Part shown: positions 10,101 through 42,950 of the stretch, piece by piece
Layout: every line of letters begins with the position of its first letter
Numbering within the stretch: position 1 is the stretch's first letter
Assembly (NCBI GenBank): GCA_039621445.1
Contig: CP154954.1
Location: 39,703,816-39,767,815, forward strand
Length of the DNA stretch: 64,000 nt
DNA from: Euglena gracilis
Taxonomy: Eukaryota
Reading direction: 5' to 3'
Notes under the pieces: generated by a model
What the model was told of the DNA's origin: nothing
Seen by the model: only the letters and a program-made list of their open reading frames with translations
Databases searched by the model: none
Program-made: the position numbers and the translations under genes

Positions 10101-10490
10101 CATCATCGCTTGGGCGCACATACACCACAAGGCTGGAGGGGTGTGTGCGATTGTCAAAATTTGACGGCGGTGGTTATCACACAATGCCTGTGTGAGTTGG
10201 TCTGGTGCCGGGTTTGCGCTAATACGCATCACCCGGTTCATCGTCTCCGCCGTGTGGTGTATCATCACACCAGCATACGGTGGGAGGCGACGGGGGCCTG
10301 TTGGCTGAGATGACCGCACTTCCTCGGGCATCTGGGTCAACCTGCTACTGCTGCTGGCTTCAGGGTTTCCCTGAGCCGCAGTCCGTACAGCTGGGTGTGT
10401 ACCGTATCGGTACGCATATTGGTCAGGCTGTGGGTGAGTGGTGGGGTGGTAAGGCGGTCCTCCACCTGGGTCCCTTCCACCGGGCAGCAT
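7154..10490 (-). pseudogene. Accessory ORF, N-terminal ~1100 codons (element A copy 2; frameshifted)
   Basis: ORF pieces 9945-10490, 9460-9861, 8854-9444, 8176-8763 and 7839-8282 align in order to element B 27497-33021 (MLPG start, YAGxMIxHT, WELWFWLGYxCQN, VDFWGFG). Confidence 0.88.
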
Positions 10491-10659
10491 GTTACCGCCC
10501 GGGGTCGGGTCGGTTATTTAGCTTAGTTGCTGGCTGTGGGGTGGTACGGGTAACTTACCCTGCTTGACAATTCACTGGTAAAAAAAATTCTGCGGAAAGA
10601 AATAATGAGAAGAATTAATGATAAAAGAAAATAAAACAATATGGGTTTCCCATGAGTTC

Positions 10660-11631
10660 TCAAAAACCTGTTACAGAAACATAAGTTTTATTCTTCTTGT
10701 TCCACAGCTTCCAGTCTTGCTGGACATACCCAACAAAACTGGTTGCTGGCTCCCAAGTGTCCTCCTCGGGCCCATACCCTTTCCAGCGGACTTTCCAAAG
10801 GTGCATACCTTTATCGAGTTTGTGATTGATGATTTTATCGACTACAAAATCGTCCGTCTCAGGTAATCTGGGACGGGGCTTGAAATGCAAGCACGGGATG
10901 GGTATTTTATCCGGTGGTGACAGGTATGGTTTGCAGTCGTCCATATGAACGTCCTCAACACCATTCGGTAATGCAACCTTATATCGCCAGCTGGTACCTA
11001 GTCTTTCTAAAATTTCACAGGGTCCGAGCCAAGGGGGGTCCAGCTTGGAAGGCCCGCATGCGAGTACGGCTACTCCGTACCCACACGCGGTCACCGGGAC
11101 TATACACAGGTGACTTGAAATGCTGCAAAAACGATTTCCGTTTATTTGCATGAATATCAGTTATTCGCTTCTGGACTGCAGAACGTACATTTTCTACTTC
11201 CGCAAACCAGGTCTCGCAACTGACACTCTTTCGGTCGTGTCTCTCCGAAGGGACATCCCCTATAGCCGGAGGGTCCCGTCCGAAAACTAGTTTATAGGGG
11301 GAGTGAGGTAAAACCAGCCCTGGTAAGGTACTGATATAAAATAAAGAACATGGTAGCACTGATATCCAGTTGCTGCGCGAGTCAGCCAGTGAAAGGCGAA
11401 GCATATTCACGACGGATTTCACGGCTGCCTCGGCTCTACCATCGCCTTTGGGTCGGCATATAATGGAAAAATGTTGCTCGATTCCGAGTAAACCGCATAA
11501 GGTGGTGAAAAACGTTGAAGAAATCAAATGGTGTTGATCACTCAAAATTTCATTCGGTAAAGCATTTATGTAAATGCATTTCTCCAAAAATATAACCACC
11601 AAACTTTGGGCAGTCAACCCTGACTTCTGGC
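10660..11631 (-). pseudogene. pol: Integrase C-terminal half + GPY/F + chromodomain (tandem copy)
   Basis: Same motifs as 6234-7153, with complete C-terminus. Confidence 0.92.
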
Positions 11632-14600: not shown

Positions 14601-14968
14601 CACCACAAGGCTGGAGGGGTGTGTGCGATTGTCAAAATTTGACGGCGGTGGTTATCCCACAATGCCTGTGTGAGTTGGTCTGGTGCGGGGTTTGCGCTAA
14701 TACGCATCACCCGGTTCATCGTCTCCGCCGTGTGGTGTATCATCACACCAGCATACGGTGGGAGGCGACGGGGGCCTGTTGGCTGAGATGACCGCGCTTC
14801 CTCGGGCATCTGGGTCAACCTGCTACTGCTGCTGGCTTCAGGGTTTCCCTGAGCCGCAGTCCGTACAGCTGGGTGTGTACCGTATCGGTACGCATATTGG
14901 TCAGGCTGTGGGTTAGTGGTGGGGTGGTAAGGCGGTCCTCCACCTGGGTCCCTTCCACCGGGCAGCAT
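11632..14968 (-). pseudogene. Accessory ORF, N-terminal ~1100 codons (element A copy 1; frameshifted)
   Basis: Copy of 7154-10490 shifted by 4478 bp. Confidence 0.88.
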
Positions 14969-15137
14969 GTTACCGCCCGGGGTCGGGTCGGTTATTTAGC
15001 TTAGTTGTTGGCTGTGGGGTGGTACGGGTAACTTACCCTGCTTGACAATTCACTGGTAAAAAAAATTCTGCGGAAAGAAAGAATGAGAAGAATTAATGAT
15101 AAAAGAAAATAAAACAATATGGGTTTCCCATGAGTTC

Positions 15138-18151: not shown

Positions 18152-18208
<57 letters not shown>

Positions 18209-20200: not shown

Positions 20201-20207
20201 CCCCAAG

Positions 20208-23289: not shown

Positions 23290-24206
<917 letters not shown>

Positions 24207-26364: not shown

Positions 26365-26366
26365 AG

Positions 26367-26674
26367 TGTACGTCTGATTCCCAATTCCCCTTTCCCAATT
26401 CCCAAAAGCCTTCGCTTTCGCCTTGGCGCACCTACTTGGGAACTGAAAAGCAGAGTAACAGAAAACCCTTTTCCCACTTCCCAAGACGCAAAGCACAGAG
26501 CAATGCAGGGAGGATGGACTGGATATCCAAGTCCGGTCTGGAGAAAAGGAAGACAAACAGAATAAAGAATACCACCTGTGGAGAGAGAAGGGGCACCCAT
26601 TAGGAAATCCGTATAGGATCTGCTTCCATCCTAACTTCCTCAACGGAAGGGGACAGAAGCATACGCCTGGTACA
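26367..26674 (-). repeat. 3' LTR of element B
   Basis: Direct repeat of 42639-42948; terminal inverted TGTAC/GTACA. Confidence 0.95.
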
Positions 26675-26676
26675 CA

Positions 26677-26686
26677 TCCCCCTCCC
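26677..26686 (-). promoter_or_regulatory. Polypurine tract (GGGAGGGGGA) of element B
   Basis: Purine run on the coding strand just before the 3' LTR; equivalent runs precede both LTRs of element C. Confidence 0.85.
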
Positions 26687-27380
26687 AGGGCTATGCCCGA
26701 TTTCCTCTTTGGACCAGGCATTCTGGCCACAGGCCTTTCGGACACAGACCTGGTCTGTTGGAGGTGCACCCTGGCGCATCCACAGGGGCCCTTTCCGTCG
26801 CACAGGGGTCCACTCAAAAAGGGGGGCGGAAAGGAGGGGGACCCAAAAGCCCAAAACGCGCAAAATGGTTTCACCTACTTTGCGGTGGCTTATGGGTGTA
26901 TAGTATACTATAGCCCACTGGTGAAAATGGGGCTGGCAGGTTTCCTTGCCAAGCAAACCCATCCACCCAGTTTGGGTGTGCTAAAGGCACTTGGGGTTGG
27001 TCCATGGGCATTCAGGGAATACCCATGGGGAGGGTGTGGAAGGAGGGGGCCTCTGACCAGTCAAACCTGAGCAGGGCGCATGGCCAGTCAAACCTGACCA
27101 CGCAAAAGAAAAGTCCTACTCTACAAAACCAACTGCCGGCGACAGCATTTGTCCGGGGGGAAAGTAGAGAGGAGTGGGGGGTTGGCTTAGGCCAGAAAAG
27201 GTGCTGTCTCGCAGCCTTAGGGCCTCAAACGGCCGAAAAGAAAAAGGGAAAGGAAAGAAAAGAGGCCTTCCCGCCCTGTGCGCTGCGTGTCGCACGCCCG
27301 CGAGAGGGGAGAGGGGAGAGGGGTGTGCATGCATGCGCACGGAATCCTGCACATGGCAGCATCCCGGTGGGAACTTACTA

Positions 27381-27455
27381 GCGGCGAATACCGCAAAGGG
27401 TCTTCGAAGGGTTGCTCGGGCGAATACCCGAACAAGGGTTCAGGCGAATACCTGA
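27381..27455. promoter_or_regulatory. Three stem-loops with identical loop CGAATA (UAUUCG on element strand)
   Basis: GCGG-cgaata-CCGC 27381-27394; TCGGG-cgaata-CCCGA 27416-27431; TCAGG-cgaata-CCTGA 27440-27455. Confidence 0.7.
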
Positions 27456-27496
27456 CGAGGGTTCTGAAAGACGCCGCATTGGCGCTGACAGACACC

Positions 27497-30400
27497 TCAC
27501 CTGCCTCTATCGGCTGGGCGTTCGCGGACCTCACGCCAGTAGTCGTGTTGAGGGTCCCCTAATGGGTCCTCGACCAACTCCAGTTGGCGTGGGGAACGTG
27601 GTGGAGCTGATTCACTCCGAATGGTGTTGAGCTCCGGATCGTTGGCATCAAAGGAAGGGGTCTCCCATTCCTTGATCCAACTGTCCGGCAGTTTCTCCCT
27701 GGTACGGTCAGCATGATGCTGAAGGTACCGTTGGAGGTGCTCCCAGAAAATTCTGGGCAGCATCACCGGCCAGATGATGTAATTCATCCGGGGGTGATTC
27801 GCAGGCACCTGCGGGGGCATCCCCGGGGTCTGCTTGAAGTTGACGTCATACGTCCACCTCGCTGTCCGAGCTCTTGCGGTATGGGGCCGTAATACAGCCG
27901 CCAACCAACCTCTGAAGTCCACCAAATCGTGTTCTTCAGGAGGCCACAGTGGCAAGGCGTATCCGCCATGCTGACGCCTGGAGAACAGGGGGTAAACCTG
28001 TGTCTCCCAGTCGCCGTCAGTCCAGAGGTAAGGCACTCTTACCCTGGCGTGTTCCTCGACGGCGAGGCGCATTGCCCCAGCGTCGATCTGGTATTCACGG
28101 GCCATTCCCGTGTGGCGGTAGCTTTCTACCTTTCGGAAGTCAGAGTGCTTCAGGCGTCCTTCCACGTGCTTGTACTCCTTCTTCCACTTCTCCAGTGTCT
28201 CCCAATGCTGGGGGACAATGGTGGTGACTGCACCATCGGCAGTCTGCACGAACTTGGCACTCATACAGTTGATGCACAAGGCAGGGATATCCCTGTCGTG
28301 AGCATTCCCACTGTAGGAGTAGTTCAAGTTGCGCTTCCAGGCGTTCAGGCACTCGCCACATACGAGCGCCACACAGTTTGGCACAAATGCCCTGTGATGG
28401 AACGTCGTGGATTGAACCTGCCGCTTGCACACATGCAAAAGTGGCTGGTTGTGCCGCACATGGTGGCACACGGTGCACGTCCAGGCAAAGGTCGTGCCTT
28501 GCAGGAAATCCAACACGCAGTCCTCACCGAAGTACTGTGCCAGTACTCGGGGTGAGCGCCTGTTCCAAAATGTCCAGGTGTGTTCCGGGACATAGTGGAA
28601 AGGTTCTCCTCGGACGAAGAGGGGCTGAATCCATCGATTCAGTGACCATTTCTGGTGCCGAATAGCAGCCAGCTTCCTCGTCCTTTGTTCCACGGTGCCT
28701 AGGCTGGTCAGGATATATTGAGTCCAGAGCTGGGCATCCGCAGACACGGGAGGTGAAGCAGGTTCATCCTGCTCCTCATCCGTCAAACCGGCGGAAGATT
28801 GGGTCTGTCGACCACGAGCCTTACCTTTCGGTTTGCTCTGGCCGTACCCGGACGATGCAACGGCCGAATAGTCCTGCATTGTCGTAGGGCCTTTTGGCTG
28901 TCCGCCAGTCTGGCATCCAGCGCCACCTTTCGGTGGTGGTTTCCCATCACCGCCTTGGACGGGGGGCTTACAGGGTGCAGCGCCCGGCTTCCCTCCTTTC
29001 GGCTTCGCACTCCCGGAATCAGGAGGCGATGGCTGCGGCTTACTCCTGGTATCAGGAGCAGGTTTTGCTGGAGCAGACGATTGTCGTCTGGGCGAAGCGG
29101 GCATCATGACCGCTGGATCGCGCATGACGCTCCGAGGCGTTGGTACCCGTTCCTGGGGTTGTTCAGCCGGCGTCCGTCGAGCAGGTTCATCCTGCCCGTG
29201 GGGGCGTGGGACTGTGGTTGTCACCGGAATCGGTGCTTCCACAGGCGCTGACACTCCCAGAAACTCTCCCATTGTCATCGGGGTGTCAGAGGGTCTGCGC
29301 GGTGTCGGTGGTCGTGGGGGTATTTCCTCCACTTCCATTTCGACGTCTGGCCGAGGAGGTTTATCCTCCACAACCGCTGGCGCAGGTGCTAGTGGAGGTT
29401 GATCCTCCGTTGTAGCCGTTACGACAGATGGCTCTGTCGGCTGGGGTTCATCTCCTGATGGTGGTTGCACTGGTGCCGGAGATGGGGGTGCGGGGACACC
29501 GACATCTGGTGTCTCCACGACCTCGGCGGCGGAGCTTGATGCTACGCCTCCACCTCGTGGCGTTAGTGCAGCAGCCACGGCAGTAATGCCAGTGACCACA
29601 GCGCCAAGTACACGGCCTCCTAATGAGGTTCGTGCTGTGGGGCTGGCGGGTTCCTCGGGGATACCCTCGACGACCACACCAGTCACCTCGGCTTCAGGCT
29701 CAGCCGTCGACACAGGCGCTGCAGCCATAGGTACATCCCCTATGGGTGCTTCGTCTGGCCGAGGCTGTGCCGGAGTAGGCAGAGCAGCGTAGAGGATATC
29801 CTCGACGTTCTCGCCTTCCTCCTGGGGGAGTTCCTCGTCTCCACCTGTCGGTGGACAGACGGGAGCCGTCGCAGGGGCCCGGGAAACTGATCGTTCCCCT
29901 GCCACTCGCGGGGCAGAGACGAAGGACACTGCCGTTCCTGTCGGAGACGGCGGCGCTGCCTCCAGAATGGTGACGGAGGGGCTGCGTTCGCGTTCCTCCC
30001 GCCGCGGAATCGCGGTTGTGGAAGCGACGGACGCCTCACGTCTCCTTCGCGCCAGAGGTTCATCCTCCGGGGCGATGAAGGCGCGCAGATCCTCGAGTGA
30101 ACGAGGATCGTCGGGGTGCCATCGGCATCCTTGAGCATCCGCCAGCATGTAAAAGGCCAGCGTGCTGCTGCTGGGGCGGTTGGGCCAGGGTGGTGGCCGT
30201 GATGGCTGCACCCACGCATTGGCAGGCCTGTTGGGGCCCAGGAATCCGCGGTAACGCGTGTCTTCCCAGACCTCGAAAACCCCTTCCTCGAACTCCTGCA
30301 CGCATGCCAAAATCGGCATACCCAGGTCGAGGATGGCCTTCGGGTAATTCATCAGCTGGAGGAATACCTCCCGGTCGAGGGTACCGCCAAACTGTCGCCT

Positions 30401-30778
30401 CAAAAGTTCTTCCAGGTCGATACCGGCCAGGTGCCAGTTGGGGCGCAGGTCGGCGATGACCCGACGACGACGAGGTCCCTCAACGGGGTCGCCGTAGTCT
30501 GGTGGCAGACTTTCCATACCTGGTCCATCGTCCTGGGGGTCACGGAGACGTATATACACCTCCATGACGTAGGTGGTCCAGGCTCGCCACCAGAACTGCT
30601 GCAGCATAAGAATACGCTGCTTGTGGACGCGGCGACTTCTGCCCTGGATCCGGGGCGTCGCGGCACACATGCATAAGCACGCGGCGTCCCATCTCCAGGC
30701 CCGGGTTATCCCGAGGCGGTGGAGGGCTTCCACGCACGCCGAATCCCCAGAAGTCGACAGTGAATTCCCTCCTGCCAT
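27497..30778 (-). CDS. Accessory protein, C-terminal part (1093-aa ORF): Pro/Glu-rich linker, Cys8 ADD/PHD-like finger, Trp-rich C-terminal region
   Basis: 3.3-kb open frame; homology to element A fragments; CxxC-x12-C-x17-C-x4-CxxC-x24-CxxC at 28265-28477. Confidence 0.8.
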   Translation of the reverse strand: MAGGNSLSTSGDSACVEALHRLGITRAWRWDAACLCMCAATPRIQGRSRRVHKQRILMLQQFWWRAWTTYVMEVYIRLRDPQDDGPGMESLPPDYGDPVEGPRRRRVIADLRPNWHLAGIDLEELLRRQFGGTLDREVFLQLMNYPKAILDLGMPILACVQEFEEGVFEVWEDTRYRGFLGPNRPANAWVQPSRPPPWPNRPSSSTLAFYMLADAQGCRWHPDDPRSLEDLRAFIAPEDEPLARRRREASVASTTAIPRREERERSPSVTILEAAPPSPTGTAVSFVSAPRVAGERSVSRAPATAPVCPPTGGDEELPQEEGENVEDILYAALPTPAQPRPDEAPIGDVPMAAAPVSTAEPEAEVTGVVVEGIPEEPASPTARTSLGGRVLGAVVTGITAVAAALTPRGGGVASSSAAEVVETPDVGVPAPPSPAPVQPPSGDEPQPTEPSVVTATTEDQPPLAPAPAVVEDKPPRPDVEMEVEEIPPRPPTPRRPSDTPMTMGEFLGVSAPVEAPIPVTTTVPRPHGQDEPARRTPAEQPQERVPTPRSVMRDPAVMMPASPRRQSSAPAKPAPDTRSKPQPSPPDSGSAKPKGGKPGAAPCKPPVQGGDGKPPPKGGAGCQTGGQPKGPTTMQDYSAVASSGYGQSKPKGKARGRQTQSSAGLTDEEQDEPASPPVSADAQLWTQYILTSLGTVEQRTRKLAAIRHQKWSLNRWIQPLFVRGEPFHYVPEHTWTFWNRRSPRVLAQYFGEDCVLDFLQGTTFAWTCTVCHHVRHNQPLLHVCKRQVQSTTFHHRAFVPNCVALVCGECLNAWKRNLNYSYSGNAHDRDIPALCINCMSAKFVQTADGAVTTIVPQHWETLEKWKKEYKHVEGRLKHSDFRKVESYRHTGMAREYQIDAGAMRLAVEEHARVRVPYLWTDGDWETQVYPLFSRRQHGGYALPLWPPEEHDLVDFRGWLAAVLRPHTARARTARWTYDVNFKQTPGMPPQVPANHPRMNYIIWPVMLPRIFWEHLQRYLQHHADRTREKLPDSWIKEWETPSFDANDPELNTIRSESAPPRSPRQLELVEDPLGDPQHDYWREVRERPADRGR

Positions 30779-33021
30779 TTATTACAACAGAGGTCATACC
30801 TCTGTGGGTAAGCCAGGGAAACGCGCTGAACGCGGAAGGTTGAGCCGTAATGGCTCACCAGCCGCACCTGGAGGTTGTTGCACCACAACACCTCAATCAG
30901 GCGTCCTACTTCGGGGTGCAGCGGAAAGTATCTCCACTGGACTCCGAGGGGTCCTACTGAATGGATACATTCGAAGTAGGTCTTCAGCATCCGGGCCAAC
31001 ACCTGCTGGTCCCGGAATGCCAGTCCCAACTGGTGCAGATAACTGCGACCAGTGGAGTTGCTGAAGAGACCCCAGTTCTGGCAGGGGTATCCCAGCCAAA
31101 ACCATAGCTCCCAAAAGCCCGGCTGGGCATCCAGCAAAGGTCTGCCACCTTCACCTTCGAAGGCGTACAGATCTATTCCGTAATGGAATAGTCTGACTCT
31201 GTTCTCGGTGTGGTGTAATACCACATCGATGACTGTCTCTGGAGGAGTGACGGGGCGGTTTCCTGCAACATGGTAATCATGCTGCATTCGCCAGCCTTCG
31301 TCTTCCAGCTCCTCCTTGAACCTGAGCATATGCTCAAAGTCCGAGAGGACTTCTGCTGGTTCTTCCTCCTGCTCACGGGCTGTACCCTTACCCTTGCCCT
31401 CACCTTTGCCTTTGCCAGCCACGCCTTTGCCTTCTCCCTTGCCTTTGCCCTCAGCCGTACCTTTGTCCTTCCCCGTCTGGTGAATACCAGCGGGTCGGGC
31501 GCTCGGTGCGGCAGCAGTCGGTTCGGTACCTTCCAATTCCTTCTCTGGGGAGGGGCCTTGCCGTTCCGCTGCACGTCGCGGTGATGGCGTGGCTGGGCGC
31601 TGGCTAGGAGCCTGGCGTGGGCTTGGTTTCGGCGTAGGGGGTCGCAGCTCCTTCCATACCGGAGGGATCGGCGGTGGCATGGCGTCAGCAGGACGGCTCA
31701 TCGCTGCCTGTGCCTCTGCCGGTGGTTGTCTAGCCAGGGTATCCTGGCTGGCTTCCACCTGCATTGCCGAACCGCCTTCCGCGTCCCTTGGGCTGGGTCG
31801 CCTGGGCTGTGGGGTAAGGTCCTCCGTAGCCCTATGGCGCTTCAGGGTGGCAGGTAATCCTGCCGCTCCTGCCGGGGGCTCACCGGGTAATACCGGGGTT
31901 GCCACCCGCAGCTGCGGTTGGTACGGATGGTATGGGGTGTATCCACGGCCCTGAAGGGCAGCCAGCGAAGAATAATACCTCGCCCGGTGCTCTTCAGACG
32001 CGAATACTGGCTCCTGCAGGAAATGCCGAGCAAGTTCATCCTGCTCGGTTCCCGGAGGTGCCATGTGGTAGTAGGGAGCCTCCTGCCGACGCGGGACATC
32101 CCCGGTTTGGACAGGAGGTGCACTGGGCGGTCGGGTTGCCGCACGGTGGAGAGGTTCATCCTCCACCACTATGGGCTCCACCTGCCGCCGTGGCTCAACG
32201 CCAGGGGCAGGGGCGACCGGTGATGCCTGTGGCATCCGGTGCGTGAACATGTGTTGGACGTATGCCTCAGGGGGCACGTCCAACTGTCCGGCTGGGAGTA
32301 CGTGTGCGCCACGTGGGTAGTCCGCGTGCGTCGCGTACTGCGGGGCAAATTGCTCTGCTGGCGGCTCGCGCAGCGGCGTTCGCTGCGGCGAGGGCGGGCG
32401 AGCAAATATTCTCGTCATCCCAGGTGGGACATGCACAGCCTCACCTACCGGTGGGGGCGTGTGCTCACGCATGTGCACGGTGTGGGATCCCACCGGCGTC
32501 TGCGTTTGCAGCATGGGCGGCACATACACGCCCAGGTCCATCCCGGTCTCGCCAGGCTCAAATCCGGAATCGGATGCCGACGAGAAATACCGTCTCCCTG
32601 TCATCAGGGCCTGCCCACAGGGACACCACTGAGCCACAGGGGTGTTGGCTACCACCAACAACTGAGCGCAGTATGCATCCCAAAGGGCTTGCATAAAGGG
32701 CTCCGTTGGAGGGCGTGCGCACATACGCATCGCCCGCTCCAACGTCTCCGTAGTGTGGAAGATCATCTCTCCCGCATACAGGGGCAGCCGCAATCTGCGC
32801 TGCACTGGTGGCTGGGGTGCCGGCTGCTGGACGGCTGATGGATCTGGTACCGCATATGCGGACCGGCTGCTGGTAGCCGCGGCGAATACCGGGGCTGGAC
32901 CCCTTTCAGCATGTGGGGCACCCGGAATCGGGACCTCACCATACTCAGGGTACTGGGAGTATGGTGCGCCCGGAGGCTGCGGCCATGGTGGACCTGGTCC
33001 TGGTCCGCGCCCAGGCAGCAT
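30706..33021 (-). CDS. Accessory protein, N-terminal part (771-aa ORF), unknown function
   Basis: 2.3-kb open frame from ATG; conserved blocks shared with element A (LPLYAGEMIFHT, QWCPCGQA, WELWFWLGYPCQN, HSVGPLGVQW); GKGKG repeats. Confidence 0.82.
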   Translation of the reverse strand: MLPGRGPGPGPPWPQPPGAPYSQYPEYGEVPIPGAPHAERGPAPVFAAATSSRSAYAVPDPSAVQQPAPQPPVQRRLRLPLYAGEMIFHTTETLERAMRMCARPPTEPFMQALWDAYCAQLLVVANTPVAQWCPCGQALMTGRRYFSSASDSGFEPGETGMDLGVYVPPMLQTQTPVGSHTVHMREHTPPPVGEAVHVPPGMTRIFARPPSPQRTPLREPPAEQFAPQYATHADYPRGAHVLPAGQLDVPPEAYVQHMFTHRMPQASPVAPAPGVEPRRQVEPIVVEDEPLHRAATRPPSAPPVQTGDVPRRQEAPYYHMAPPGTEQDELARHFLQEPVFASEEHRARYYSSLAALQGRGYTPYHPYQPQLRVATPVLPGEPPAGAAGLPATLKRHRATEDLTPQPRRPSPRDAEGGSAMQVEASQDTLARQPPAEAQAAMSRPADAMPPPIPPVWKELRPPTPKPSPRQAPSQRPATPSPRRAAERQGPSPEKELEGTEPTAAAPSARPAGIHQTGKDKGTAEGKGKGEGKGVAGKGKGEGKGKGTAREQEEEPAEVLSDFEHMLRFKEELEDEGWRMQHDYHVAGNRPVTPPETVIDVVLHHTENRVRLFHYGIDLYAFEGEGGRPLLDAQPGFWELWFWLGYPCQNWGLFSNSTGRSYLHQLGLAFRDQQVLARMLKTYFECIHSVGPLGVQWRYFPLHPEVGRLIEVLWCNNLQVRLVSHYGSTFRVQRVSLAYPQRYDLCCNKWQEGIHCRLLGIRRAWKPSTASG

Positions 33022-33255
33022 GATGCTACCCGAACGACGACGACAACGAAGGATAACCTTGTTGTCAGTCGCTTTGAGTGCTAGGCACTGAAAAAGAAGA
33101 TGCTTCTATCCTTATCAAAAACTGTGTGAGAAAGACAGAAGATGCAGTGCAGGGGGGGGTATAAACGCGGAACATTCACATAAAACACACACATTCTCCA
33201 AAACGAAATCGTTTCAGAAAGTGTTAATGTTTATGTCTATGTTATTGCGCTTGTT

Positions 33256-33745
33256 TCACAGCTTCCAATCCTGCTGGATATATCCAACAAAACTGGATGC
33301 TGGCTCCCAAGTGTCCTCCTCTGGCCCATACCCCTTCCAGCGAACTTTCCAGTAGTGCACACCCCTGTCGACCTTGTGGTCTATTATCTTATCAACCACA
33401 AAGTCGTCCGTTTCAGGTAATCTGGAACGGGGCTTGAAATATAAGCAGGGGATAGCTTTTCCGTCTGGGGGGCTTAGGTACGGTTTGAAATCGTCCATAT
33501 GGACGTCCTCAATCCCGTTGGGCAAGGCAACTTTACATCGCCCGCTACTTCCTAACCTGTTCAAAATTTCGCATGGGCCGAGCCAAAGAGGATGTAGCTT
33601 GGAAGATTGCATGCGGGTGCGGTTATTCCGTACCCACACGCAGTCACCTGGACTATACACAGGTGTGTTGAAATTTTGTAAAAACGATTTCCGTTTGTTG
33701 GAATGAATTTCTGTGATAAGTGATTGAACTGCAGAGCGGAGTTGA
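33256..33745 (-). pseudogene. pol: Integrase GPY/F region + chromodomain of element B (frameshifted from IN core)
   Basis: [22 protein letters not shown]...[18 protein letters not shown]. Confidence 0.93.
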
Positions 33746-35383
33746 TTCCACTTCTGCAAACCACGTTTCACAGCTAACACTACTTCGGGCGGGTCTCTCC
33801 GAGGGGATATCTCCTATGGCCGGAGGGTCTCGTCCGAAAACAATTTTATACGGTGAGTGTGGTAATACCACCCCTGGCAAGGTATTGATGTAAAATAAAC
33901 ACCAATGAAGAATAGATATCCAATTCTTACCCGAGTCAGCCAGTGAAAGGCGTAGCATATTGACAACAGATTTCACGGCTGCCTCAGCTCCACCGTTGCC
34001 TTTCGGGCGGTATATAATGGACAAATGCTGCTCAATACCGAGTAAACCGCACAAAGTCGTGAAAAACCGCGACGAGATCAAGTGATCTTGATCCCTCACG
34101 ATTTCGTTCGGTAAACCCATTAAGCAGATACATTTCTCCAGGAATATGGATGCCAAAATTTGGGCTGTCAACCCTGCTTTCCGGCATGGAATGGCTACAA
34201 TGTACCCACTCAGCCGACAGACGACAACAAAAACGTAATCGTAAATTTTTTCATCTGATCCTTTGCAAGGTTCGAGTTCGAGAAAATCCATGCAGAGGGA
34301 CGTAAAAATGTCCGGTGGTACGGGGAAAAAATCCATCGTACCAGGGGGGGTACCTCTGCGCGGTTTCACAGCCTGACAAATTGGGCACCGCTGCGAAATT
34401 CGCAAACAGCGCGAATATAAATCTTTTTCACTCAGGGTTGTGCAATATCTGCGACCCACCAGTGAAAGAAGTTTCAGGGCCCCAGGGTGACCATGGTTGT
34501 GATAGCTCAAAATCACATCATCAACCAGGTCTTGGGGTATACAATATTTATAACCAGAATCATTCCGGAAGATAGGTCGCAATGGTGATAGAGAGTAATT
34601 CTCTATGGACTCACCATTACGGAGTCTATTCACAATGGTACTATATACAGGGTCACGCGAATAATCCCATTCGCGGAAAAATAGGGGGGTAGGAGTTTCC
34701 GTACGCGTAATGCGACGGGGTCCGGCAGTGCGTCCACGCCGGCGCCTTCCACGCAATGGTGAAATGGCAATGCTGCGATACACCCGGGAAACGGGTAGTG
34801 AGTCGAGCATGTTGTCCACAGCGTCGGATCGACGTGCGAACTGGTCAGCCCCATGGCTGCCATGAAAAGTCGCATCACCCTCATCCGGGTTCCCAGGATA
34901 ATACCAGGGGGCTCGGCTGAGAGGATCCGCCACTTTTTGCGTATGACCTGGGGTATAAAATACCACCAGGTTAAACTGGCTCAAGAACTCATGCCATCGG
35001 CATCGTCTGCCAACTGATGACATGGCCTTGTTCAGGTCCCCGGTATACCAGTGTTGAAGGCTCTCATGATCCGTCAACACCAGTATCTGGACCAGGCTGC
35101 TGGCTATCCAGCTGTGGAATTTCTGGAGAATAAGCACAATGGCGTATGTCTCCTTTTCGCGAACGCTCCGTTTAACCTGTCCTTTGCTGTTGTCGCCGTG
35201 TAGCTTCCTGCTAAAGAAAGCCACAGGTCGGAGTTCATTCGCCGCATTATGCTGGCTAAGAACCCCGCCAACAGCGTAATCGCTGCTGTCGACCTCCAGG
35301 ACATACGGTTTGTATGGATCCGCGATATCGAGAACCACGTTCTCGAGGAGCAAGTCCTTGATTTTATTCAAGGCCTCGCGCAT
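33653..35383 (-). CDS. pol: RNase H + integrase (HHCC, DDE) of element B
   Basis: [41 protein letters not shown]...CPIC, MDF, DQD, AE. Confidence 0.95.
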
Positions 35384-36400
35384 TTGGTCATCCCAAATGA
35401 CTTTTGCGTTATCGGGTGTCCGATTTTTGAGTTGTCGGGTTAGGGGTACCGCGATTTTCGCGAAATCTTAGATGTAAATCGCGTAGTATTGGGCTTATCC
35501 CAAAAATCCCTTTAAATGCGTTAAGGTCTTAGTGACCTCAGGGGTCCATTTCTTAGTGGCCTCCATCTTGCTGGGTGCGGCTTGACGCTGCCCGTTGCTC
35601 AGGATATGCCCGCAAAACTTAACAATTTTGCGAAACAGGTGCATTTTGGAACCCTTCACAAAAAGCACATTGCTTTTTGAACGCGGATAATACCGCCCGC
35701 ACATCGCGATAATGCGGTTCGAGGATATCCTTGCCCGATTTCGCGGATGGCGGTTTGGTTCCCACCAGTACATCATCGATGTACACCAGAGCGAACGGTA
35801 AATCGCGCAAAACCCACTGGATCATGCGTTGAAACATGGCTGGGCCATTCTTAACACCCATAGGGAGTACCGTCCATTGGCACACACCCTTGGATGTCAC
35901 GAATGCCGTGTACGTTTGTGAATCGGGTGCAAATGCATCTGATGAAAACCGTCTTCTAGATCAAAGATTGACCACAACCGGTTATCCGATTGTTTGGTGA
36001 TCAAATCCTCGATCAGCAGTAACGGGAAGGGGTCATCCTTCGTTTGGGAGTTCAGGTACCGGTAATCCAGCACCAGTCTCCACTTCTTCTGACCAGACTG
36101 GTCAGCGGGTTTGGGCACCACAAAAGCTTGTGATGTCCATTCGCTCTTGGAAGGGATAATCCACTTCCGCTGGATGAGCTTCTCAATCATCTCGTTGAGA
36201 GCTTGTTCGCGTTTAACCGAACAACGGAAGAATTTCCGGTGCATGGGCTTAGCGCCATCCTTGAGCTCGATTTTGCAAACACCGAACAGAACGCGAATCG
36301 CGGGGTCGATGTCGCAGGCGTAAACTGGGTTATCCAGTACACCATGGAATTCGCGAGTAAAACGCGAACAATAGTCAGCAGACTTGGGGTGTTGGTCCGC
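35384..36400 (-). pseudogene. pol: Reverse transcriptase of element B (frameshifted)
   Basis: WRLVLDYRYLN, DLEDGFHQ, LPMGVKNGPAMFQR, YIDD at 35772-35783. Confidence 0.95.
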
Positions 36401-36494
36401 ACTCTCAATAACCGCCAGAAATCTGCGTTGAGGGTGTGGCATCCCCATTGGTACCAAGGTATCTTGGCACACGCAAATCGTATATACCGAATGT

Positions 36495-36893
36495 GTCAAA
36501 GAAACAAACGCGAAAAATGATTTCTTTAACAGGTGGTAAAAATATACCACAAAAGTCCTCGAATAGTGGTACATCAGCGGGTAAATCCCACCAATGAAAA
36601 CAGACATAGGATAGTTGATGAAACCAATGCGCATTCGGATTGACGGGTATGAGGAGAGATCCTCGCGCTTCATCGCGGAGGATTTTCTCCACCACATCCG
36701 GAAGAAGTTTTGGGGGAGGGTTCAACCAAAGCACCGTATCACCCAAAAATTTAAGGAATGCGTTGGAGTGTCGCGACCAATGTCGCGAAAAGCGTGCATG
36801 CGCTTGTGATGAAAACGCATCAATTTCCAACGACAAATCGAAGGAATCAGCCAAAGCCGCGATTTTGGAGAACCATTCCTCCAAAATACGGTA
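36495..36893 (-). CDS. Dam/DIRS1-type DNA amino (N6-adenine-like) methyltransferase domain inside pol of element B
   Basis: IDAFSS..HA..RHWS..NAF....WLNPPP..LLPDVVEKI.RD...LLIP..P.AHWF..L; ordered motif pattern of the Dam family; NPPP at 36711-36722. Confidence 0.85.
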
Positions 36894-37749
36894 TTGACCA
36901 AAATTAAATGCGTTCCATACGCGTATCGCGTATGTATCGACCTGGTTTGCGGGTTGAAGAGCGGTAACGCAATTCAGGGAACCGCAAACATAGGCCAAGG
37001 GTGTGTCATCCACACTCCCAAGGGGCATTCCCAAGGAATGATGGGTTGGATGGGTGCATACCCAGTCCATAACATGCCAGATGGAGGTGGTGGAGGTGGG
37101 TGACACGGATTTCGCGGTCCCAAACAACAAGGCAATACCTCGTTGTTGTAGCACTTGATGTACGGTCGCGCATTGCGATCCGCAACCAAGTGTATGGGTA
37201 CGCGAAATCGGTATTAGTGTTGGGGTTTGGACTAAACATCCACAATCGAAATCTGGCTGGGCGGAAATTCTCCTACAGTGCACACATTGGAAGGAAGTGT
37301 CGGAGTAGTGGTCCTGGTCGCGCATGTTGGTCTGGTGGGGGTGTGTGTAAAAGTTGGAATGCGCTTTTGTAGCTGCTGGGGGGTGTACAGATGTATCTGA
37401 AAGCGATACATCTGGTGGAAAACGGGGTATTGGTGCAGCTGGGCGACTACTCGACACCGTAATTACTTCAGGCCTTTGGGCTTTCGTCTTGTAACCCAGT
37501 GGAACGAGGGGTACCGCTACTTGCTTGCCCTGCCTCGTGGGGAACGGAAGTTGGTGTGTGGATGGGCAGGGGGTGAACTCTCTCGGTACACCCGGTGTGG
37601 AAAACGTTGGTAGGTGTGGTTGGTAACGGGGTAAAAGTTTTCGAAAACTGTGTGCAAAAATTGGTGGCTGTCGTGGTTGACGCCACAGGTGATGAGGGTT
37701 TGGGGGGCAATGAAGAGAACGGTGATGTGCGCAAACCGTGGGAGTGGCA

Positions 37750-38060
37750 ATCCACTACCAGCCGGTGCTGACGTAAAAAGGGGTATCCCAGAATTACGTC
37801 AGAACCATGGATTCCGGATTCGTATCCCCAGGTATGCGGAAAATTTTGCCTTTTTGGGGGGTGTGAGTGGTGCTTGGGGATGAGGGGTAGGACTAAGTCC
37901 AAAATGCAACACAAGTCACCACCGCACATGGGGGTGTTGTCAGCCGTCGTTACTTTGATCGGCTTCTTGGCTTTCACCAAGAGGGTGGTCGGTATCAACC
38001 CGAACCCAAAAAGTAGTGCAATGCGACAACCAGTGTCAATGAGAATTTTGACTTTTGCAC
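37750..38060 (-). CDS. pol: Retropepsin aspartic protease of element B
   Basis: KILIDTGC (D at 38035-38037), VTTADN, DVILGYPFL. Confidence 0.9.
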
Positions 38061-38343: not shown

Positions 38344-41300
38344 CTACTCCAGGTCCGAACCGGCCGAATAGCCGGCTATGGGCCTTTTAGAGGTATAAAC
38401 GGATTTCAACGTGCGCACCGCCATGCAGGCTTCGTCAAAATCGGTACCCGTGGTCTCATCCCCCTCCCTGCCCGAAGCCGGGGTGTCATCCTCCAAACAA
38501 GATACCTTGAAACCGACTTTATGGCGGTTGGAGGAGTGACCCTTGTCACCGCGATTCATACCGCGATGACGTTGGCCAGAGCGGGGAGAACGAGAACGCG
38601 GACATTTGGATGAGTGGTGACCACTCGATCCACAAAGCGAACACCGAGATTTGTGTCGCGAATATGGATAACGGGGGGATCGGTTTCCCGATTTCCCGTC
38701 AAACCGTCGTGGTGACCGGGTATCCCGTCGACCATGACCGGTGTATCGGGGTTTTCCCAATCAGGATCGCGAAGAGGATGATCTGCTTCGCGAACGCGAT
38801 CGCGATGTCTCGCGATAAGGATCACGCTTCTTGGCAGGGGCACCGGGTGACCTGCCCCGAGGGGTACCGTGTTTCCGCTCATCGCGGAACGGGATCCGGG
38901 GGCTAATACCACCGGAACGGGGACCCGATGACCGTGAATTGCCCGATTGGCGTGAAAACGCGGAGGAATCCAAACCCCGTGATGAGGTCGAGCCTCGCGG
39001 ACTCTGACCACGCTTTTGTGCTTCAGGGTTAGGACATTCCCGAGACATATGCCCCGATTTGTTGCACAAAAAGCACACTTTATCCGTGGCTTGGTCCGAA
39101 GAACGCGGGTATCGCGTTTTCGATACCGTGTTTGGTGAAGTGGGTGAAACTGGTGATTTTTGCAATGCGTTCACCGAACCAGCCGGTAATCCCGCGGTTG
39201 GGTGTACGGTATACGCGGATTGAATCTGACCAAGGAGCTGTGATAGCTTCAACTGCTTGGAAACGTAATTCCAGCGTTGGTCAAGAGTCATGGGATGACT
39301 CGCCAACTCCTCACGGTGGATATCCTTGAGGAGGCTAGGCGTGAAATGCATGAGAACAGCGTCAAACTGTTCGCGCATTTGCTTTTCACTGAGTTCATCC
39401 ACTTCAGCAGCAAGTCCTAACCATTTGGCATACCAATGGTCAATGCACTTCCACTTGCGATCGGATGGGGCGCATTGCCGATACTCGGTCTCTAGGGTAA
39501 TCCTAGCGACCAAACTTGAACTGGTGGAAACGCGATAGCGAATGACGAGTTGTCGCGCGCGCTCCTTCTCATCCCTTGGCAGGCAATCGATGAATTCCAT
39601 CTTGATCACCTCCGGGTTTGTGTCCTGGGTTTGCCCCTTCAATGCCCAGTAATACTCCCAGTCCCGTAAAAACTGTCTCAATGTGGTTGGATCACCGTCC
39701 CACTGGGGTTTCACCTTGTTCGCGATTGCGACGGTGCCTTTGAAGTCTTTCTGAGAAACCCAATGACCCTCGGTGGTATTCCGTGGAATCGGGCCCGGGT
39801 ACGCTCGAGCACCAAGCGTATCCTTTCCGGATTCTTGTCGGAATAGCGAAATTTCTGGTGAAGGTGAATCCTGGTACCGGAAATCCGTTCCCAAACCCTG
39901 TTGGTCACCCGTAATAGGGGGACACTCCGGTGTGGGGGTATGTCGCGCATGCAACATGTGACCCACTCCCGGTGTACAGGTTTGGCTCATTCCACGCACA
40001 AGCATGGAATGATGGATTTCTTGGTGGAGACTTGGCGGAATCGCCGTGTTTTCCGAAAATTCGGTTCCCTTAATGGGAAATTCATCCGAAAACTGGTTTT
40101 GGGTTTGGGCAAGGCCAATGGTGGCACAATTCGCGGAATCGCGGGTTGTGACACTCGGGACACGGGTGGTGGTGGTGCATGTGCACCTAGATTCGGGTTG
40201 TGAAAACGCGAATCTGGAACATTTGGCGCATCTTCGGCAATGCATACTGCCGAATTTCGGTGTGAAACCCGCTGTTGGTTGGACACATTGTCCAGACCCA
40301 CAGACAAGTCATGCACGCTTTGCTCCAAATGCTCAACGAGTTGCAGTTGGCCGCAAATACGGTCAACCTCATCCTCCAAAGCGCGAATACGCTTGCGGTA
40401 ACGGGAAAAGTCATCCAAGTGCGGAATCCTTTCGGAAATTCCGGTGACATCTTGGACAAGTTTCCCGTGAGACTCATCCAGTAATTGGAGTTGTCCCGTT
40501 AATGCTTTTACAGCTTTTGAGAGAATCTGCAAAGGTGGTGTCACCTCGGTTGGTGTGGTAGTGGGTACAACCGGTGCAGGGTCATCCGACAACGCGGTTG
40601 TGGTACCCACGGGCAAATTTCCGGGTTGTGGCTTATCCAAAAACGCAGAAATTCGCTCGTCCAACCTGGTAATCTCACCATGCGTGGATCGGGCATTCCG
40701 ATTCACCGATTCCTCAAGCCGTAATAGGCTGTTGCAAAAATCTTGCAAGGTTTCCTGATTGTCGGTGAGCATTTTGTCATAAAATGCCTTGAAATCATGT
40801 TTCTTGGTAATCCGTGAACTGGAATCTGCTGGCAAAGACTGCATTTCCGTTAATTTGGTAGACACCGATGCATACCGGGTCTGGAGTTCCCCAATAGCTG
40901 TCTGAATACCGCTAATGTCCGGAACTCGGTGGGAAAGTGCGGAATAGCTTTGTTGCAAACCCGCAATGGCCGAGTTAATCCCGCCAACGTCGGACTGCAA
41001 CTGCAACTGCAGGGATTCCTGCCGTTGTTCCATTTCCGCGACTTTCGCGCTCAGATTGGATAATCCAACCTGATTCGCGTCACAATAGCAGGTTTTCTGC
41101 TCAAAACGGGAAAGTCACTCCTCCAACTGCCGCACATACGTGTGGGGAGCAAAATTCTCGTTGGCTTGTGACTGGAATAGCCGAAAATTTACCGTTTCAT
41201 CGCACAACAGCATAATGCGGTGTTGCGATTCATGGAAAGTTGCGGATAGGGTGGTGAAATGGTCCATAGACACAAATCCACCAGTACTGGATGTTGCAGA

Positions 41301-42479: not shown

Positions 42480-42636
42480 GTAGGATCGAACCAATCTGCT
42501 ACCAAGTGTAAAACCTGGAAGCTTTTCTTTCTGTGAAGTATGTGTAGGATCGTAATCAAATCTGCTACCAACTGTAAAACCTGGTAGCTTTTCTTTCTGT
42601 GAAGTATGTGTAGGATCGTAACCAAATCTGCTACCA
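42480..42636 (-). promoter_or_regulatory. Primer-binding site TGGTAGCAGA (tRNA-iMet-like), three copies at 66-bp period
   Basis: tctgctacca at 42495-42504, 42561-42570 and 42627-42636, each preceded by gtaggatcg; last copy adjoins the 5' LTR. Confidence 0.85.
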
Positions 42637-42638
42637 AG

Positions 42639-42948
42639 TGTACGTCTGATTCCCCAATTCCCCTTTCCCAATTCCCAAAAGCCTTCGCTTTCGCCTTGGC
42701 GCACCTACTTGGGAACTGAAAATGAGAGTAACAGAAAACCCTTTTCCCACTTCCCAAGAAGCAAAGCACAGAGCATTACAGGGAGGACGGACTGGATATC
42801 CAAGTCCGGTCCGGAGAAAAGGAAGACAAACAGAATAAAGAATACCACCTGTGGAGAGAGAAGGGGCACCCATTAGGAAATCCTAATAGGATCCGCTTCC
42901 ATCCTAACTTCCTCAACGGGAAGGGGACAGAAGCGTACGCCTGGTACA
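42639..42948 (-). repeat. 5' LTR of element B
   Basis: Direct repeat of 26367-26674, about 95% identical by eye. Confidence 0.95.
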
Positions 42949-42950
42949 CA

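What the first reader, a model, noticed from the sequence alone, without database searches (positions are those of the whole stretch)
27497..33021. Giant (~1840-codon) uncharacterised accessory ORF downstream of pol, conserved in two divergent subfamilies
Seen: B has 771-aa and 1093-aa ORFs bridged by a short third-frame piece (30540-30797, VDFWGFG...HVCR). Element A reads through this junction in one frame (7839-8282) but is broken where B is continuous, so the ancestor was one ORF. A and B share discrete blocks (YAGxMIxHTxET...WCxCxQA; WELWFWLGYPCQN...HSVGxLGxQW; LAYPxRYxLxC...VDFWGFGxRG...HxCR...LQQxWxRAWxTYV; KPGAAPCKPP) separated by unalignable Pro-rich and GKGKG linkers, a pattern expected from purifying selection. 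It occupies the env position but shows no signal peptide. Inference: a novel multidomain accessory factor, possibly anti-silencing or targeting.
Basis: partly seen in the sequence, partly recalled or inferred. Interest (0 to 1): 0.82.

Follow-up and report, generated by a model that had tools for sequence, protein, structure and literature searches.

The report
Giant extra gene in Euglena retrotransposon
A jumping gene of the gypsy type, most likely from the alga Euglena gracilis, carries behind its usual genes a very large extra gene of about 1,840 codons that resembles no known protein family; it is real and old, but one sister copy lacks it and its function is still unknown.

Summary
Element B (minus strand, 26365-42950) is a complete Ty3/gypsy chromovirus. 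It has 314-bp LTRs, a PBS-like site, a PPT, a gag zinc knuckle (CCHC), RT, RNase H, integrase and a chromodomain. Between the pol stop and the PPT lies a separate ORF3 (ATG 33021, stop 27497) of about 1,840 codons, broken only by two frameshifts near 30610-30780. Subfamily A (79% nt identity in pol) has the same ORF at the same place. Five blocks are 30-49% identical in protein, although the DNA there cannot be aligned. A reads the B frameshift zone in one frame.

Three things are new:
- The best match is a Euglena gracilis transcript (91% identity).
- The C-terminal ~430 aa has distant environmental relatives (25-48%) that share an eight-cysteine pattern.
- Sister copy C (94% identical integrase) lacks the whole ORF3 module, with the junction between two C-runs, so ORF3 is an optional module.

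Pfam, PDB sequence search and fold searches found nothing. There is no signal peptide and only one marginal hydrophobic segment, so it is not env-like. No terminal repeats mark a nested transposon.

The function is inferred only: an accessory, probably zinc-binding, host-interaction protein, perhaps expressed from a spliced mRNA. RNA read depth was too low to test expression.

The parts
42637..42950 (-). 5' LTR of element B (314 bp, TGTGTACC...GACGTACA)
   Evidence: 96% identical to 26365-26676. The termini were read in the alignment.
42622..42636 (-). PBS-like site (TGGTAGCAGATTTGG), 2 nt after the 5' LTR
   Evidence: Read directly. It was not matched to a tRNA.
38761..41114 (-). gag region: a coiled-coil N-terminal frame and a frame with a CCHC zinc knuckle
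   Evidence: Pfam zf-CCHC E 3e-05; coiled-coil type hits on 39987-41114.
35897..37754 (-). protease/RT region of pol, in broken frames
   Evidence: Pfam RVT_1 E 3.2e-05, below the gathering score. Homologous to A and C.
33653..35467 (-). RNase H and integrase
   Evidence: Pfam RT_RNaseH_2 2.9e-24, Integrase_H2C2 2.2e-07, rve 1.3e-06.
33256..33813 (-). integrase C-terminal SH3 and chromodomain, the end of pol
   Evidence: Pfam Chromo E 9.4e-12 in B and 1.1e-10 in A at 15141-15638.
33022..33255 (-). spacer between pol and ORF3, with pyrimidine tract + AG ending at 33122 and 33088 (candidate splice acceptors)
   Evidence: Sequence read. A has a comparable tract + CAG at 15068-15070, 100 nt before its ATG. 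The acceptor role is inferred.
30706..33021 (-). ORF3 part 1 (771 codons from the ATG at 33021): blocks b1 (residues 106-217 of P0002), b2 (372-486), b3 (559-796), and Pro-rich and GKGKG linkers
30608..30770 (-). ORF3 middle piece in the third frame (VDFWGFG...HVCR), between the two frameshifts
27497..30778 (-). ORF3 part 2 (1093 codons plus stop): block b4, an acidic Pro-rich linker, basic block b5, and the C-terminal domain
27500..28879 (-). C-terminal conserved region (P0001 residues 634-1093) with the 8-Cys pattern and the PGMPPQ..ANHPR.N..IWP motif
   Evidence: 13 of the 20 hits fall here. Alignment.
26677..27496 (-). 3' untranslated region. The polypurine tract GGGAGGGGGA at 26677-26686 abuts the 3' LTR.
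   Evidence: 27160-26368 is shared with copy C.
26365..26676 (-). 3' LTR of element B
5645..15070 (-). ORF3 of element A, heavily frameshifted. ATG at 14966-14968. Blocks at 14429-14767 / 9951-10289, 9112-9435, 12618-13322, 11990-12559 / 7512-8081 and 5645-5899. Interrupted by a 4,478-bp tandem duplication.
54200..55519 (+). Copy C: the end of pol joined directly to the 3' region. The junction is at about 54721-54725, and the ORF3 module (B 33154-27160) is absent.
   Evidence: C 54200-54725 matches B 33679-33154 at 98.5%. C 54721-55519 matches B 27160-26368 at 87%. The junction lies in C-runs.

Best explanation
The region is ORF3 of a Ty3/gypsy chromovirus, most likely of Euglena gracilis. It is a separate gene of about 1,840 codons with its own conserved start (MLPG...), lying between the chromodomain end of pol and the polypurine tract. 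It was a real protein-coding gene of the element lineage before subfamilies A and B split. It is decayed in both copies here: two frameshifts in B, many in A.

The protein is built from a few conserved globular modules joined by long disordered Pro-rich, acidic or Gly/Lys-rich linkers. The modules are b1 (~110 aa), b3+b4 (~420 aa, spanning the frameshift zone) and a C-terminal ~430 aa module with eight conserved cysteines. It has no signal peptide and no clear membrane anchor, so it is not an envelope protein.

It is an optional module. Sister copy C has lost it by a deletion between two short C-runs while keeping gag-pol.

Inferred, not shown: it is an accessory factor acting in trans inside the cell. 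It probably binds zinc through the Cys module and serves as an adaptor towards host proteins or nucleic acid. It may be translated from a subgenomic mRNA made by splicing at a pyrimidine-tract/AG site about 100 nt before its ATG. In a euglenid that splicing could be spliced-leader trans-splicing.
For: Element anatomy: LTRs, PBS-like site, PPT and the gag-pol domains with a chromodomain.

ORF size against chance.

Same place, same orientation and same start peptide in A and B. Both have a pyrimidine tract + AG about 100 nt upstream, in otherwise unalignable spacers.

Blocks are conserved in protein while the DNA cannot be aligned. Nei-Gojobori dN/dS in the 7 tblastn blocks is 0.15-0.42 for 6 of them; the 7th has saturated dS and pN/pS 0.63.

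An exhaustive HMMER search with P0001 gave 20 hits in 1.84 billion representatives, and 13 of them lie in the C-terminal 634-1093 region. Of the 10 looked up, P0003 (91%) and P0008 carry Euglena gracilis transcript labels; the other 8 are unnamed contigs from metagenome and sequencing-run collections. The Cys columns are kept in every homologue that covers them except the degenerate P0004.

Another copy, P0023, is 91% identical over 356 aa without gaps.

Copy C lacks the module, with the junction in C-runs. No terminal direct or inverted repeats lie at the module borders.

The strongest hydropathy window is only 1.6.
Against: - No function is shown.
- There was no Pfam, PDB-sequence or fold match. 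Both structure models are of low confidence (pLDDT 53.8 and 46.3).
- The RING-like lead from the protein atlas scores 0.80-0.83, a level that shuffled proteins often reach.
- The dN/dS blocks were chosen by protein similarity and dS is saturated, so the ratio is biased low.
- RNA reads cover the whole element at depth about 0-4 on both strands, with no peak, joint or loose end at ORF3. This neither shows an ORF3 mRNA nor excludes DNA carry-over.
- ORF3 is far more diverged between A and B (30-49% aa in blocks) than pol (73-83% aa). It is also 6-10 points richer in G+C than gag-pol in both elements. Together these may mean a separate history.
- Copy C shows that ORF3 is not needed in cis.
Confidence: 0.7

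Rival explanations
1. ORF3 is a passenger: a host gene, or a piece of one, captured by an ancestral element and carried along without serving the element.
For: ORF3 is 6-10 points richer in G+C than gag-pol in both A and B. It is much more diverged between subfamilies than pol. It can be lost cleanly, as in copy C. The summed contig depth of run X7 over the ORF3 bins is about half that over the gag-pol bins (the tool warns that depth is no copy number).
Against: The start peptide, the position and at least five blocks were kept after the A/B split. None of the named hits looks like a free-standing host gene with these modules; P0008 and P0017 contain only about 65 aa of linker. C-terminal relatives keep the Cys pattern at 25-48% identity.
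Confidence: 0.12
2. ORF3 belongs to an independent mobile element nested in the 3' part of a C-like chromovirus.
For: B differs from C by one clean ~6-kb block. The two C-runs at its borders could also be read as a 6-bp target duplication.
Against: There are no terminal direct or inverted repeats at 27160/33154. No transposase, RT or other mobile-element domain was found in the block. A homologous ORF in the same orientation sits at the same site in the diverged subfamily A, with a conserved start.
Confidence: 0.05
3. ORF3 is an envelope-like gene, making the element a retrovirus-like agent.
For: It occupies the env position after pol. One Gly/Ala/Val-rich segment (P0001 386-405) reaches a Kyte-Doolittle mean of 1.6.
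Against: The N-terminus is Pro/Gly-rich with no hydrophobic signal core. There is no second hydrophobic segment. No envelope family matched in Pfam at E up to 5 on the four ORF3 segments scanned, nor at E up to 0.01 on the two whole frames. The long acidic and basic disordered linkers are unlike glycoprotein ectodomains.
Confidence: 0.03
4. The open frames are not a gene; they are a by-product of GC-rich, repetitive DNA.
For: The region has about 60% G+C and several 150-220 aa frames on the opposite strand.
Against: Open frames of 1093 and 799 codons are far beyond chance. Protein-level blocks match A, and diverged environmental proteins match at E down to 1.6e-28.
Confidence: 0.01

Closest known systems
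Chromoviruses (Ty3/gypsy elements whose integrase ends in a chromodomain)
   Same: The carrier element has LTRs with TG..CA ends, a PBS-like site, a PPT, gag with CCHC, the RT-RNaseH-integrase order, and a C-terminal chromodomain. It sits inside a 29-bp satellite, which fits heterochromatin targeting (established knowledge, recalled).
   Different: The element is 16.6 kb long, and one third of it is a third ORF larger than pol. By my recollection typical chromoviruses have only gag-pol.
Non-envelope ORF3s of LTR retrotransposons, e.g. bdelloid rotifer ORF3 types (PMC5408684, abstract read) and plant additional ORFs
   Same: An extra, modular ORF after pol that can be gained, lost or exchanged between elements.
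   Different: The rotifer ORF3s have recognisable enzyme domains (GDSL esterase, DEDDy exonuclease) or are env-like. This one matched no family and is much larger.
CERV of C. elegans Cer1 (PMC10309623, abstract read)
   Same: A novel, non-envelope protein encoded by an LTR element beside gag-pol and made from a spliced mRNA. It acts in the nucleus on the element's own RNA. It is a possible functional analogue, and a model for how ORF3 might be expressed.
   Different: No sequence comparison with CERV was made here. Splicing and nuclear action of ORF3 are only inferred.
Euglena gracilis LTR elements with adenine and cytosine methyltransferase domains (bioRxiv 10.64898/2026.05.21.726589, passages read)
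   Same: Same host and same superfamily. Both are chromodomain-bearing elements with large added coding capacity aimed at host chromatin.
   Different: No methyltransferase domain was found in ORF3 or pol here. In that paper's green-alga example the extra domain is appended to the pol ORF, and the passages read do not place the Euglena domains. Here the added part is a separate ORF.
RING/PHD-type cross-brace zinc fingers
   Same: Eight conserved Cys, with the second half spaced C-x4-C-x2-C ... C-x2-C. The nearest named atlas clusters are RING proteins.
   Different: No Pfam RING or PHD hit at E up to 5. There is no His at the fourth ligand position, and 15-20 residues separate the third and fourth Cys. 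The atlas scores are at chance level.

Membership tests
Ty3/gypsy chromovirus (the carrier element) | Two LTRs in direct orientation with TG...CA ends | tested here: met
   314 bp, 96% identical, TGTGTACC...GACGTACA.
Ty3/gypsy chromovirus (the carrier element) | Domain order RT - RNase H - integrase, and gag with a zinc knuckle | tested here: met
   Pfam hits along the minus strand: zf-CCHC, RVT_1 (weak), RT_RNaseH_2, Integrase_H2C2, rve.
Ty3/gypsy chromovirus (the carrier element) | Chromodomain at the C-terminus of integrase | tested here: met
   Pfam Chromo E 9.4e-12 (B) and 1.1e-10 (A), both above the gathering score.
Retroviral / errantiviral envelope gene | N-terminal signal peptide | tested here: not met
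   The N-terminus is MLPGRGPGPGPPWPQPP... with no hydrophobic core. The highest hydropathy in the first frame is 1.08. No dedicated signal-peptide predictor was run.
Retroviral / errantiviral envelope gene | Membrane anchor and fusion subunit | tested here: inconclusive
   One marginal segment with a Kyte-Doolittle mean of 1.6. No fold or family match.
RING finger (C3HC4 / C3H2C3) | Match to RING profile models | tested here: not met
   No Pfam family at E up to 5 on the C-terminal 460 aa.
RING finger (C3HC4 / C3H2C3) | Canonical ligand spacing, with His at position 4 one to three residues after Cys 3 (pattern recalled) | tested here: not met
   Alignment A1 shows C-x2-C, then H-x-C, then C-x4-C-x2-C, then C-x2-C, with Ala at the expected His position.
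RING finger (C3HC4 / C3H2C3) | Cross-brace two-zinc fold | tested here: inconclusive
   The models have pLDDT 53.8 and 46.3. Best VIA Z is 4.4; best Foldseek E is 1.6 (PDB) and 0.93 (viral).
Euglena methyltransferase-bearing LTR elements | Adenine or cytosine DNA methyltransferase domain | tested here: not met
   No such Pfam family on any ORF of element B that was scanned.
Independent nested transposon | Own terminal repeats and a mobility protein | tested here: not met
   No terminal repeats at the module borders and no mobility domain. The C-runs at the borders could still be a target duplication.
Cer1 CERV-like regulator | Made from a spliced subgenomic mRNA and needed for genomic RNA export | not testable with these tools
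   RNA depth of 0-4 reads per position gave no joints. Only candidate acceptor motifs were seen.

The most novel reading that the evidence does not exclude
ORF3 founds a new euglenid retroelement protein family. It would be a giant, mostly disordered hub protein with novel zinc-binding modules, translated from a subgenomic mRNA created by spliced-leader trans-splicing at the conserved pyrimidine-tract/AG site about 100 nt before its ATG. That would be a way of expressing a retroelement accessory gene that I do not recall being described for LTR elements. The protein would act in trans, for example as a ubiquitin-ligase-like adaptor or chromatin or RNA-export factor, to shield a very abundant chromovirus family from host silencing. 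Deletion derivatives such as copy C would then ride on it as parasites.
Probability: 0.15. Interest if true: 0.75.

Novelty: new variant of a known kind. Interest (0 to 1): 0.5.

Why it matters
LTR elements make up a fifth to a third of the 2.37-Gb Euglena gracilis assembly and are barely described (PMC11252322, passages read). Three literature searches found only one preprint that deals with Euglena Ty3 elements, and it concerns methyltransferase domains.

A high-copy chromovirus family that spends a third of its length on an unknown 1,840-codon gene points to an unstudied layer of element-host interaction in euglenids. It also defines at least one new conserved protein domain with environmental relatives. 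The natural pair of ORF3-plus and ORF3-minus copies gives a ready comparison for asking what the gene contributes. The candidate acceptor site gives a direct test of whether retroelements in trans-splicing organisms use the host's spliced leader to express downstream genes.

Tried and rejected
- No whole genome is held for the window. Earlier scan notes had nothing.
- Word-index protein searches with P0002: residues 90-799 at near lengths found none. Residues 575-799 against shorter proteins found none. Residues 100-225 against shorter proteins found one close copy only, P0023.
- Pfam found nothing on either ORF3 frame or on the four ORF3 segments at E up to 5, apart from one chance-level GAF_2 hit (E 0.04, 14.6 bits against a cut-off of 28.6). 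Of the five homologues scanned, one had a chance-level DZR hit.
- A profile of alignment A1 against PDB sequences gave 0 hits at E up to 5.
- Structure models: 460 aa at pLDDT 53.8; the trimmed 326 aa was worse, at 46.3.
Foldseek PDB, best E 1.6. Foldseek viral, best E 0.93. With models this poor, these say nothing about the fold.
- Protein atlas: RING-type clusters at 0.80-0.83 for the C-terminal part. Unnamed clusters at 0.84, and an OTU family on 19% of one cluster, for block b3. All are at chance level.
- Context of the environmental relatives: alignments A1 and A2 were too loose to make search patterns. Alignment A3 and protein P0022 found no confirmed locus in metagenome contigs, and A3 found none in viral contigs. 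So it is unknown whether the relatives also sit in retroelements.
- RNA: of the 24 runs listed, four were laid. The three raw RNA runs placed 134, 381 and 127 reads on 16.2 kb, mostly 90-95% alike, on both strands, with no listed joint, start cluster or loose end at ORF3. This is no evidence for or against an ORF3 mRNA.
- The script machine was lost. A planned low-stringency tblastn for a C-terminal domain in A, and codon-usage comparisons, were not run. The A downstream frames were read by eye instead.
- Supplementary files of the papers were not opened. Those of the methyltransferase preprint may list Euglena LTR families and could show whether this family has been catalogued.

Full report
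**What is in the sequence**

On the minus strand there are two very long stop-free frames: 30706-33105 (799 codons) and 27497-30778 (1093 codons). The first Met of the upstream frame is at 33021.

Across 30480-30900 the three frames read in turn ...LAYPQRYDLCC...VDFWGFGVRG...HVCR and ...LQQFWWRAWTTYV. So B is one ORF of about 1,840 codons broken by two frameshifts within about 200 bp.

At about 60% G+C roughly 3% of random codons are stops. Frames of this length therefore cannot arise by chance (my arithmetic, about e^-35 for 1093 codons).

**The carrier element**

Upstream on the same strand, Pfam finds a gag zinc knuckle, RT (weak), RNase H, the integrase zinc-binding and core domains, and an SH3 plus chromodomain at the end of pol (Chromo E 9.4e-12).

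A 314-bp repeat, 96% identical, lies at 42637-42950 and 26365-26676. In the alignment it starts TGTGTACC and ends GACGTACA. The upstream copy is followed after 2 nt by TGGTAGCAGATTTGG, a PBS-like site. The downstream copy is preceded directly by GGGAGGGGGA, a polypurine tract.

Element B is therefore a complete 16.6-kb chromovirus at 26365-42950, and ORF3 lies inside it between pol and the PPT. B is flanked on both sides by one 29-bp satellite (25655-26363 and 42949-45159), so it appears to have inserted into that array. A target duplication could not be read with confidence.

**Comparison with element A**

A and B align as DNA only in pol (B 33242-36213, about 79%). Their integrase and RT proteins are 73-83% identical.

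Downstream of pol the DNA does not align, but tblastn finds five blocks at 30-49% identity, with E from 2.6e-05 to 2.3e-33. Their motifs are invariant across the B copy and both A copies: WELWFWLGY.CQN and HSVG..G.QW. Others are shared between A and B: LAYP.RY.L.C, VDFWGFG.RG and LQQ.W.RAW.TYV.EVYI.

Both ORF3s begin with M-L-P-G-(G)-R-x-P-G, shortly after the pol stop. A reads B's frameshift zone in one frame (12320-12787 and its duplicate 7842-8309) but is itself frameshifted in many other places.

The A blocks appear twice because A contains a 4,478-bp tandem duplication (copies starting at 6234, 10712 and 15190, 97-100% identical).

A is cut off after block 5. Below about 5450 nothing resembles B's C-terminal part (read by eye; the planned sensitive search was lost with the script machine).

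Nei-Gojobori estimates on the 7 tblastn blocks give dN/dS of 0.15-0.42 for 6 of them. The 7th has saturated dS, with pN/pS 0.63. These values are biased low, because the blocks were selected by protein similarity and dS is at or near saturation.

**A copy without ORF3**

A third copy, C, lies head to head with B on the plus strand (gag from about 46750). Its integrase is 94% identical to B's.

C 54200-54725 matches B 33679-33154 at 98.5%, and the very next bases, C 54721-55519, match B 27160-26368 at 87%. The roughly 6 kb between them in B is ORF3 plus about 130 nt before it and 337 nt after it, and it is missing in C.

At the junction B has ...TATACCCCCCCC|TGCACTG on one side and ...CTTTCCCCCC|GGACAAATGC on the other, while C has ...TATACCCCCC|GGGGCAAATGC. 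That is a breakpoint within a 6-8 nt C-run.

Subfamily A has a homologous ORF at the same site, so the simplest reading is loss in C by microhomology, for example template switching during reverse transcription. A 6-bp target duplication of an inserted block cannot be formally excluded. However, the block has no terminal direct or inverted repeats and no mobility domain.

In the contig run X7, the summed depth over the 11 ORF3 bins averages about 0.52 of that over the 14 gag-pol bins (my arithmetic). The tool warns that this is no copy number, so it is only a hint that many family members lack ORF3 or carry a more diverged one.

**Organism and relatives**

An exhaustive HMMER search of 1.84 billion representatives with the 1093-aa frame gave only 20 hits at E up to 0.001.

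The best hit, P0003 (91% identity over 230 aa), and P0008 carry labels of Euglena gracilis transcripts. The other 8 of the 10 looked up are unnamed short contigs from metagenome or run collections.

Thirteen hits cover parts of residues 634-1093 at 25-48% identity, or 91% for P0003. They share C-T-[VL]-C-H, H-x-C, C-x-A-x-x-C-x-x-C and C-[IV]-N-C, followed by helical segments and a PG[ML]P.Q...NHP..N..IWP motif and W..P.FD. Every homologue that spans the Cys columns keeps them, except the degenerate P0004.

A further copy of the N-terminal part, P0023, is 91% identical over 356 aa without gaps. The family is thus multi-copy, at least partly transcribed in E. gracilis, and its C-terminal domain is older than the species.

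P0008 and P0017 are host-like transcripts that contain only about 65 aa of the ORF3 linker.

**What kind of protein it is**

No Pfam family matches either frame, the four ORF3 segments, or five of the homologues at E up to 5, apart from two chance-level hits. A profile of the C-terminal alignment finds nothing among PDB sequences.

The AlphaFold models are poor (pLDDT 53.8 and 46.3). Fold searches give nothing above background: best VIA Z is 4.4, and best Foldseek E is 1.6 against PDB and 0.93 against viral models.

The protein atlas places the C-terminal part nearest to RING-finger clusters, but at 0.80-0.83, which shuffled proteins often reach. Block b3 has no named neighbour of note.

Composition windows show alternating Pro-rich (up to 28% Pro), acidic and Gly/Lys-rich stretches between Cys- and Trp-containing blocks.

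There is no N-terminal hydrophobic core, and only one marginal hydrophobic window (mean 1.6, P0001 386-405). An envelope protein is therefore unlikely. The methyltransferase domains reported in other Euglena LTR elements (bioRxiv 10.64898/2026.05.21.726589, passages read) are absent.

**How it may work (inferred)**

ORF3 is a separate cistron about 235 nt after the pol stop. In the otherwise unalignable spacers, both subfamilies have a long pyrimidine tract ending in AG about 100 nt before the ATG. In B the AGs are at 33122, with a second at 33088. In A the CAG is at 15068-15070, with the ATG at 14966-14968.

This is what a 3' splice acceptor looks like. Euglenids mature many mRNAs by spliced-leader trans-splicing (recalled, not from a call), and Cer1 of C. 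elegans makes its non-envelope accessory protein CERV from a spliced mRNA (PMC10309623, abstract). I therefore favour a subgenomic spliced mRNA for ORF3.

The RNA data at hand cannot test this. Three raw RNA runs placed 134, 381 and 127 reads on 16.2 kb, most of them 90-95% alike, on both strands, evenly over gag, pol and ORF3, with no listed joints or loose ends at ORF3.

The protein's build is small conserved modules, at least one cysteine cluster likely to bind zinc, and long disordered linkers. Together with its dispensability in cis (copy C), this fits an accessory adaptor acting in trans on host proteins, chromatin or the element's RNA. Which of these it does is unknown.

**Points that do not fit neatly**

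ORF3 is much more diverged between A and B than pol. It is also 6-10 points richer in G+C than gag-pol in both elements. Part of this may reflect its Pro/Ala/Gly-rich composition and fast-evolving linkers, but a separate history (capture or exchange of the module) is possible.

The flank downstream of the C deletion is 87% identical to B, while the upstream flank is 98.5% identical. This suggests recombination among family members.

**Comparison and verdict**

The carrier element is an ordinary chromovirus by every feature tested. Extra ORFs after pol are a known theme, for example the varied ORF3s of bdelloid rotifer elements (PMC5408684, abstract) and CERV.

What is unusual here:
- The size of ORF3, which is larger than pol and takes up a third of the element.
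- The absence of any recognisable domain.
- A conserved C-terminal domain with environmental relatives.
- A natural ORF3-minus sibling.

Three literature searches found no description of it. Supplements were not available.

I rate it a new variant of a known kind, of moderate interest.

Noticed in passing
window 6234-16110: Element A holds a 4,478-bp tandem duplication: two full units plus a 920-bp third start, 97-100% identical. Each unit comprises the integrase C-terminal piece plus ORF3 blocks b1-b4. It could come from unequal recombination or template switching, or be an assembly artefact.
   Followed up: partly
window 25655-26363 and 42949-45159: A 29-bp satellite (about 25 and 77 copies, 70-73% matches) flanks element B on both sides in the same orientation. 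B seems to have inserted into the array, and copy C abuts its far side.
   Followed up: partly
window 54810-56214: Copy C ends with a tandem duplication of its 3' region plus LTR (54810-55518 against 55519-56214, 82% identical). Its 5' side (45160-46730) does not match B's leader or LTR.
   Followed up: partly
window 18154-24206, also 1843-3846: 215-bp direct repeats (18154-18368 and 23861-24075, 96%) bracket about 5.7 kb that cuts off element A's RT. This looks like a further nested insertion, with a (TG)n run of 282 units at 23353-23911. An inverted 2-kb relative (95%) lies at 1843-3846.
   Followed up: no
P0008 and P0017 (Euglena gracilis transcript proteins), matching window about 29312-29510: Two host-like transcript proteins carry a stretch of about 45-67 aa that is 82-84% identical to the Pro-rich ORF3 linker. 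One has several hydrophobic N-terminal segments. This may be exonised or chimeric retroelement sequence.
   Followed up: no
window 37042-37112: In two RNA runs (X8, X12) a piece of about 70 nt inside the protease/RT region has a local depth peak. The loose ends on both sides are consistent and the variants are shared, as if this short piece is part of some other expressed RNA.
   Followed up: no
window 39987-41114: The frame upstream of the gag zinc-knuckle frame scores above the Pfam cut-off for baculovirus P10 (E 5.4e-08, 33.7 against 29.8 bits), along with many coiled-coil families. This is probably a coiled-coil resemblance rather than homology.
   Followed up: no
window 27482-33432 against 33433-41006: ORF3 is 6-10 points richer in G+C than gag-pol, both in B (0.60-0.61 against 0.50-0.54) and in A (0.55-0.57 against 0.48).
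   Followed up: partly
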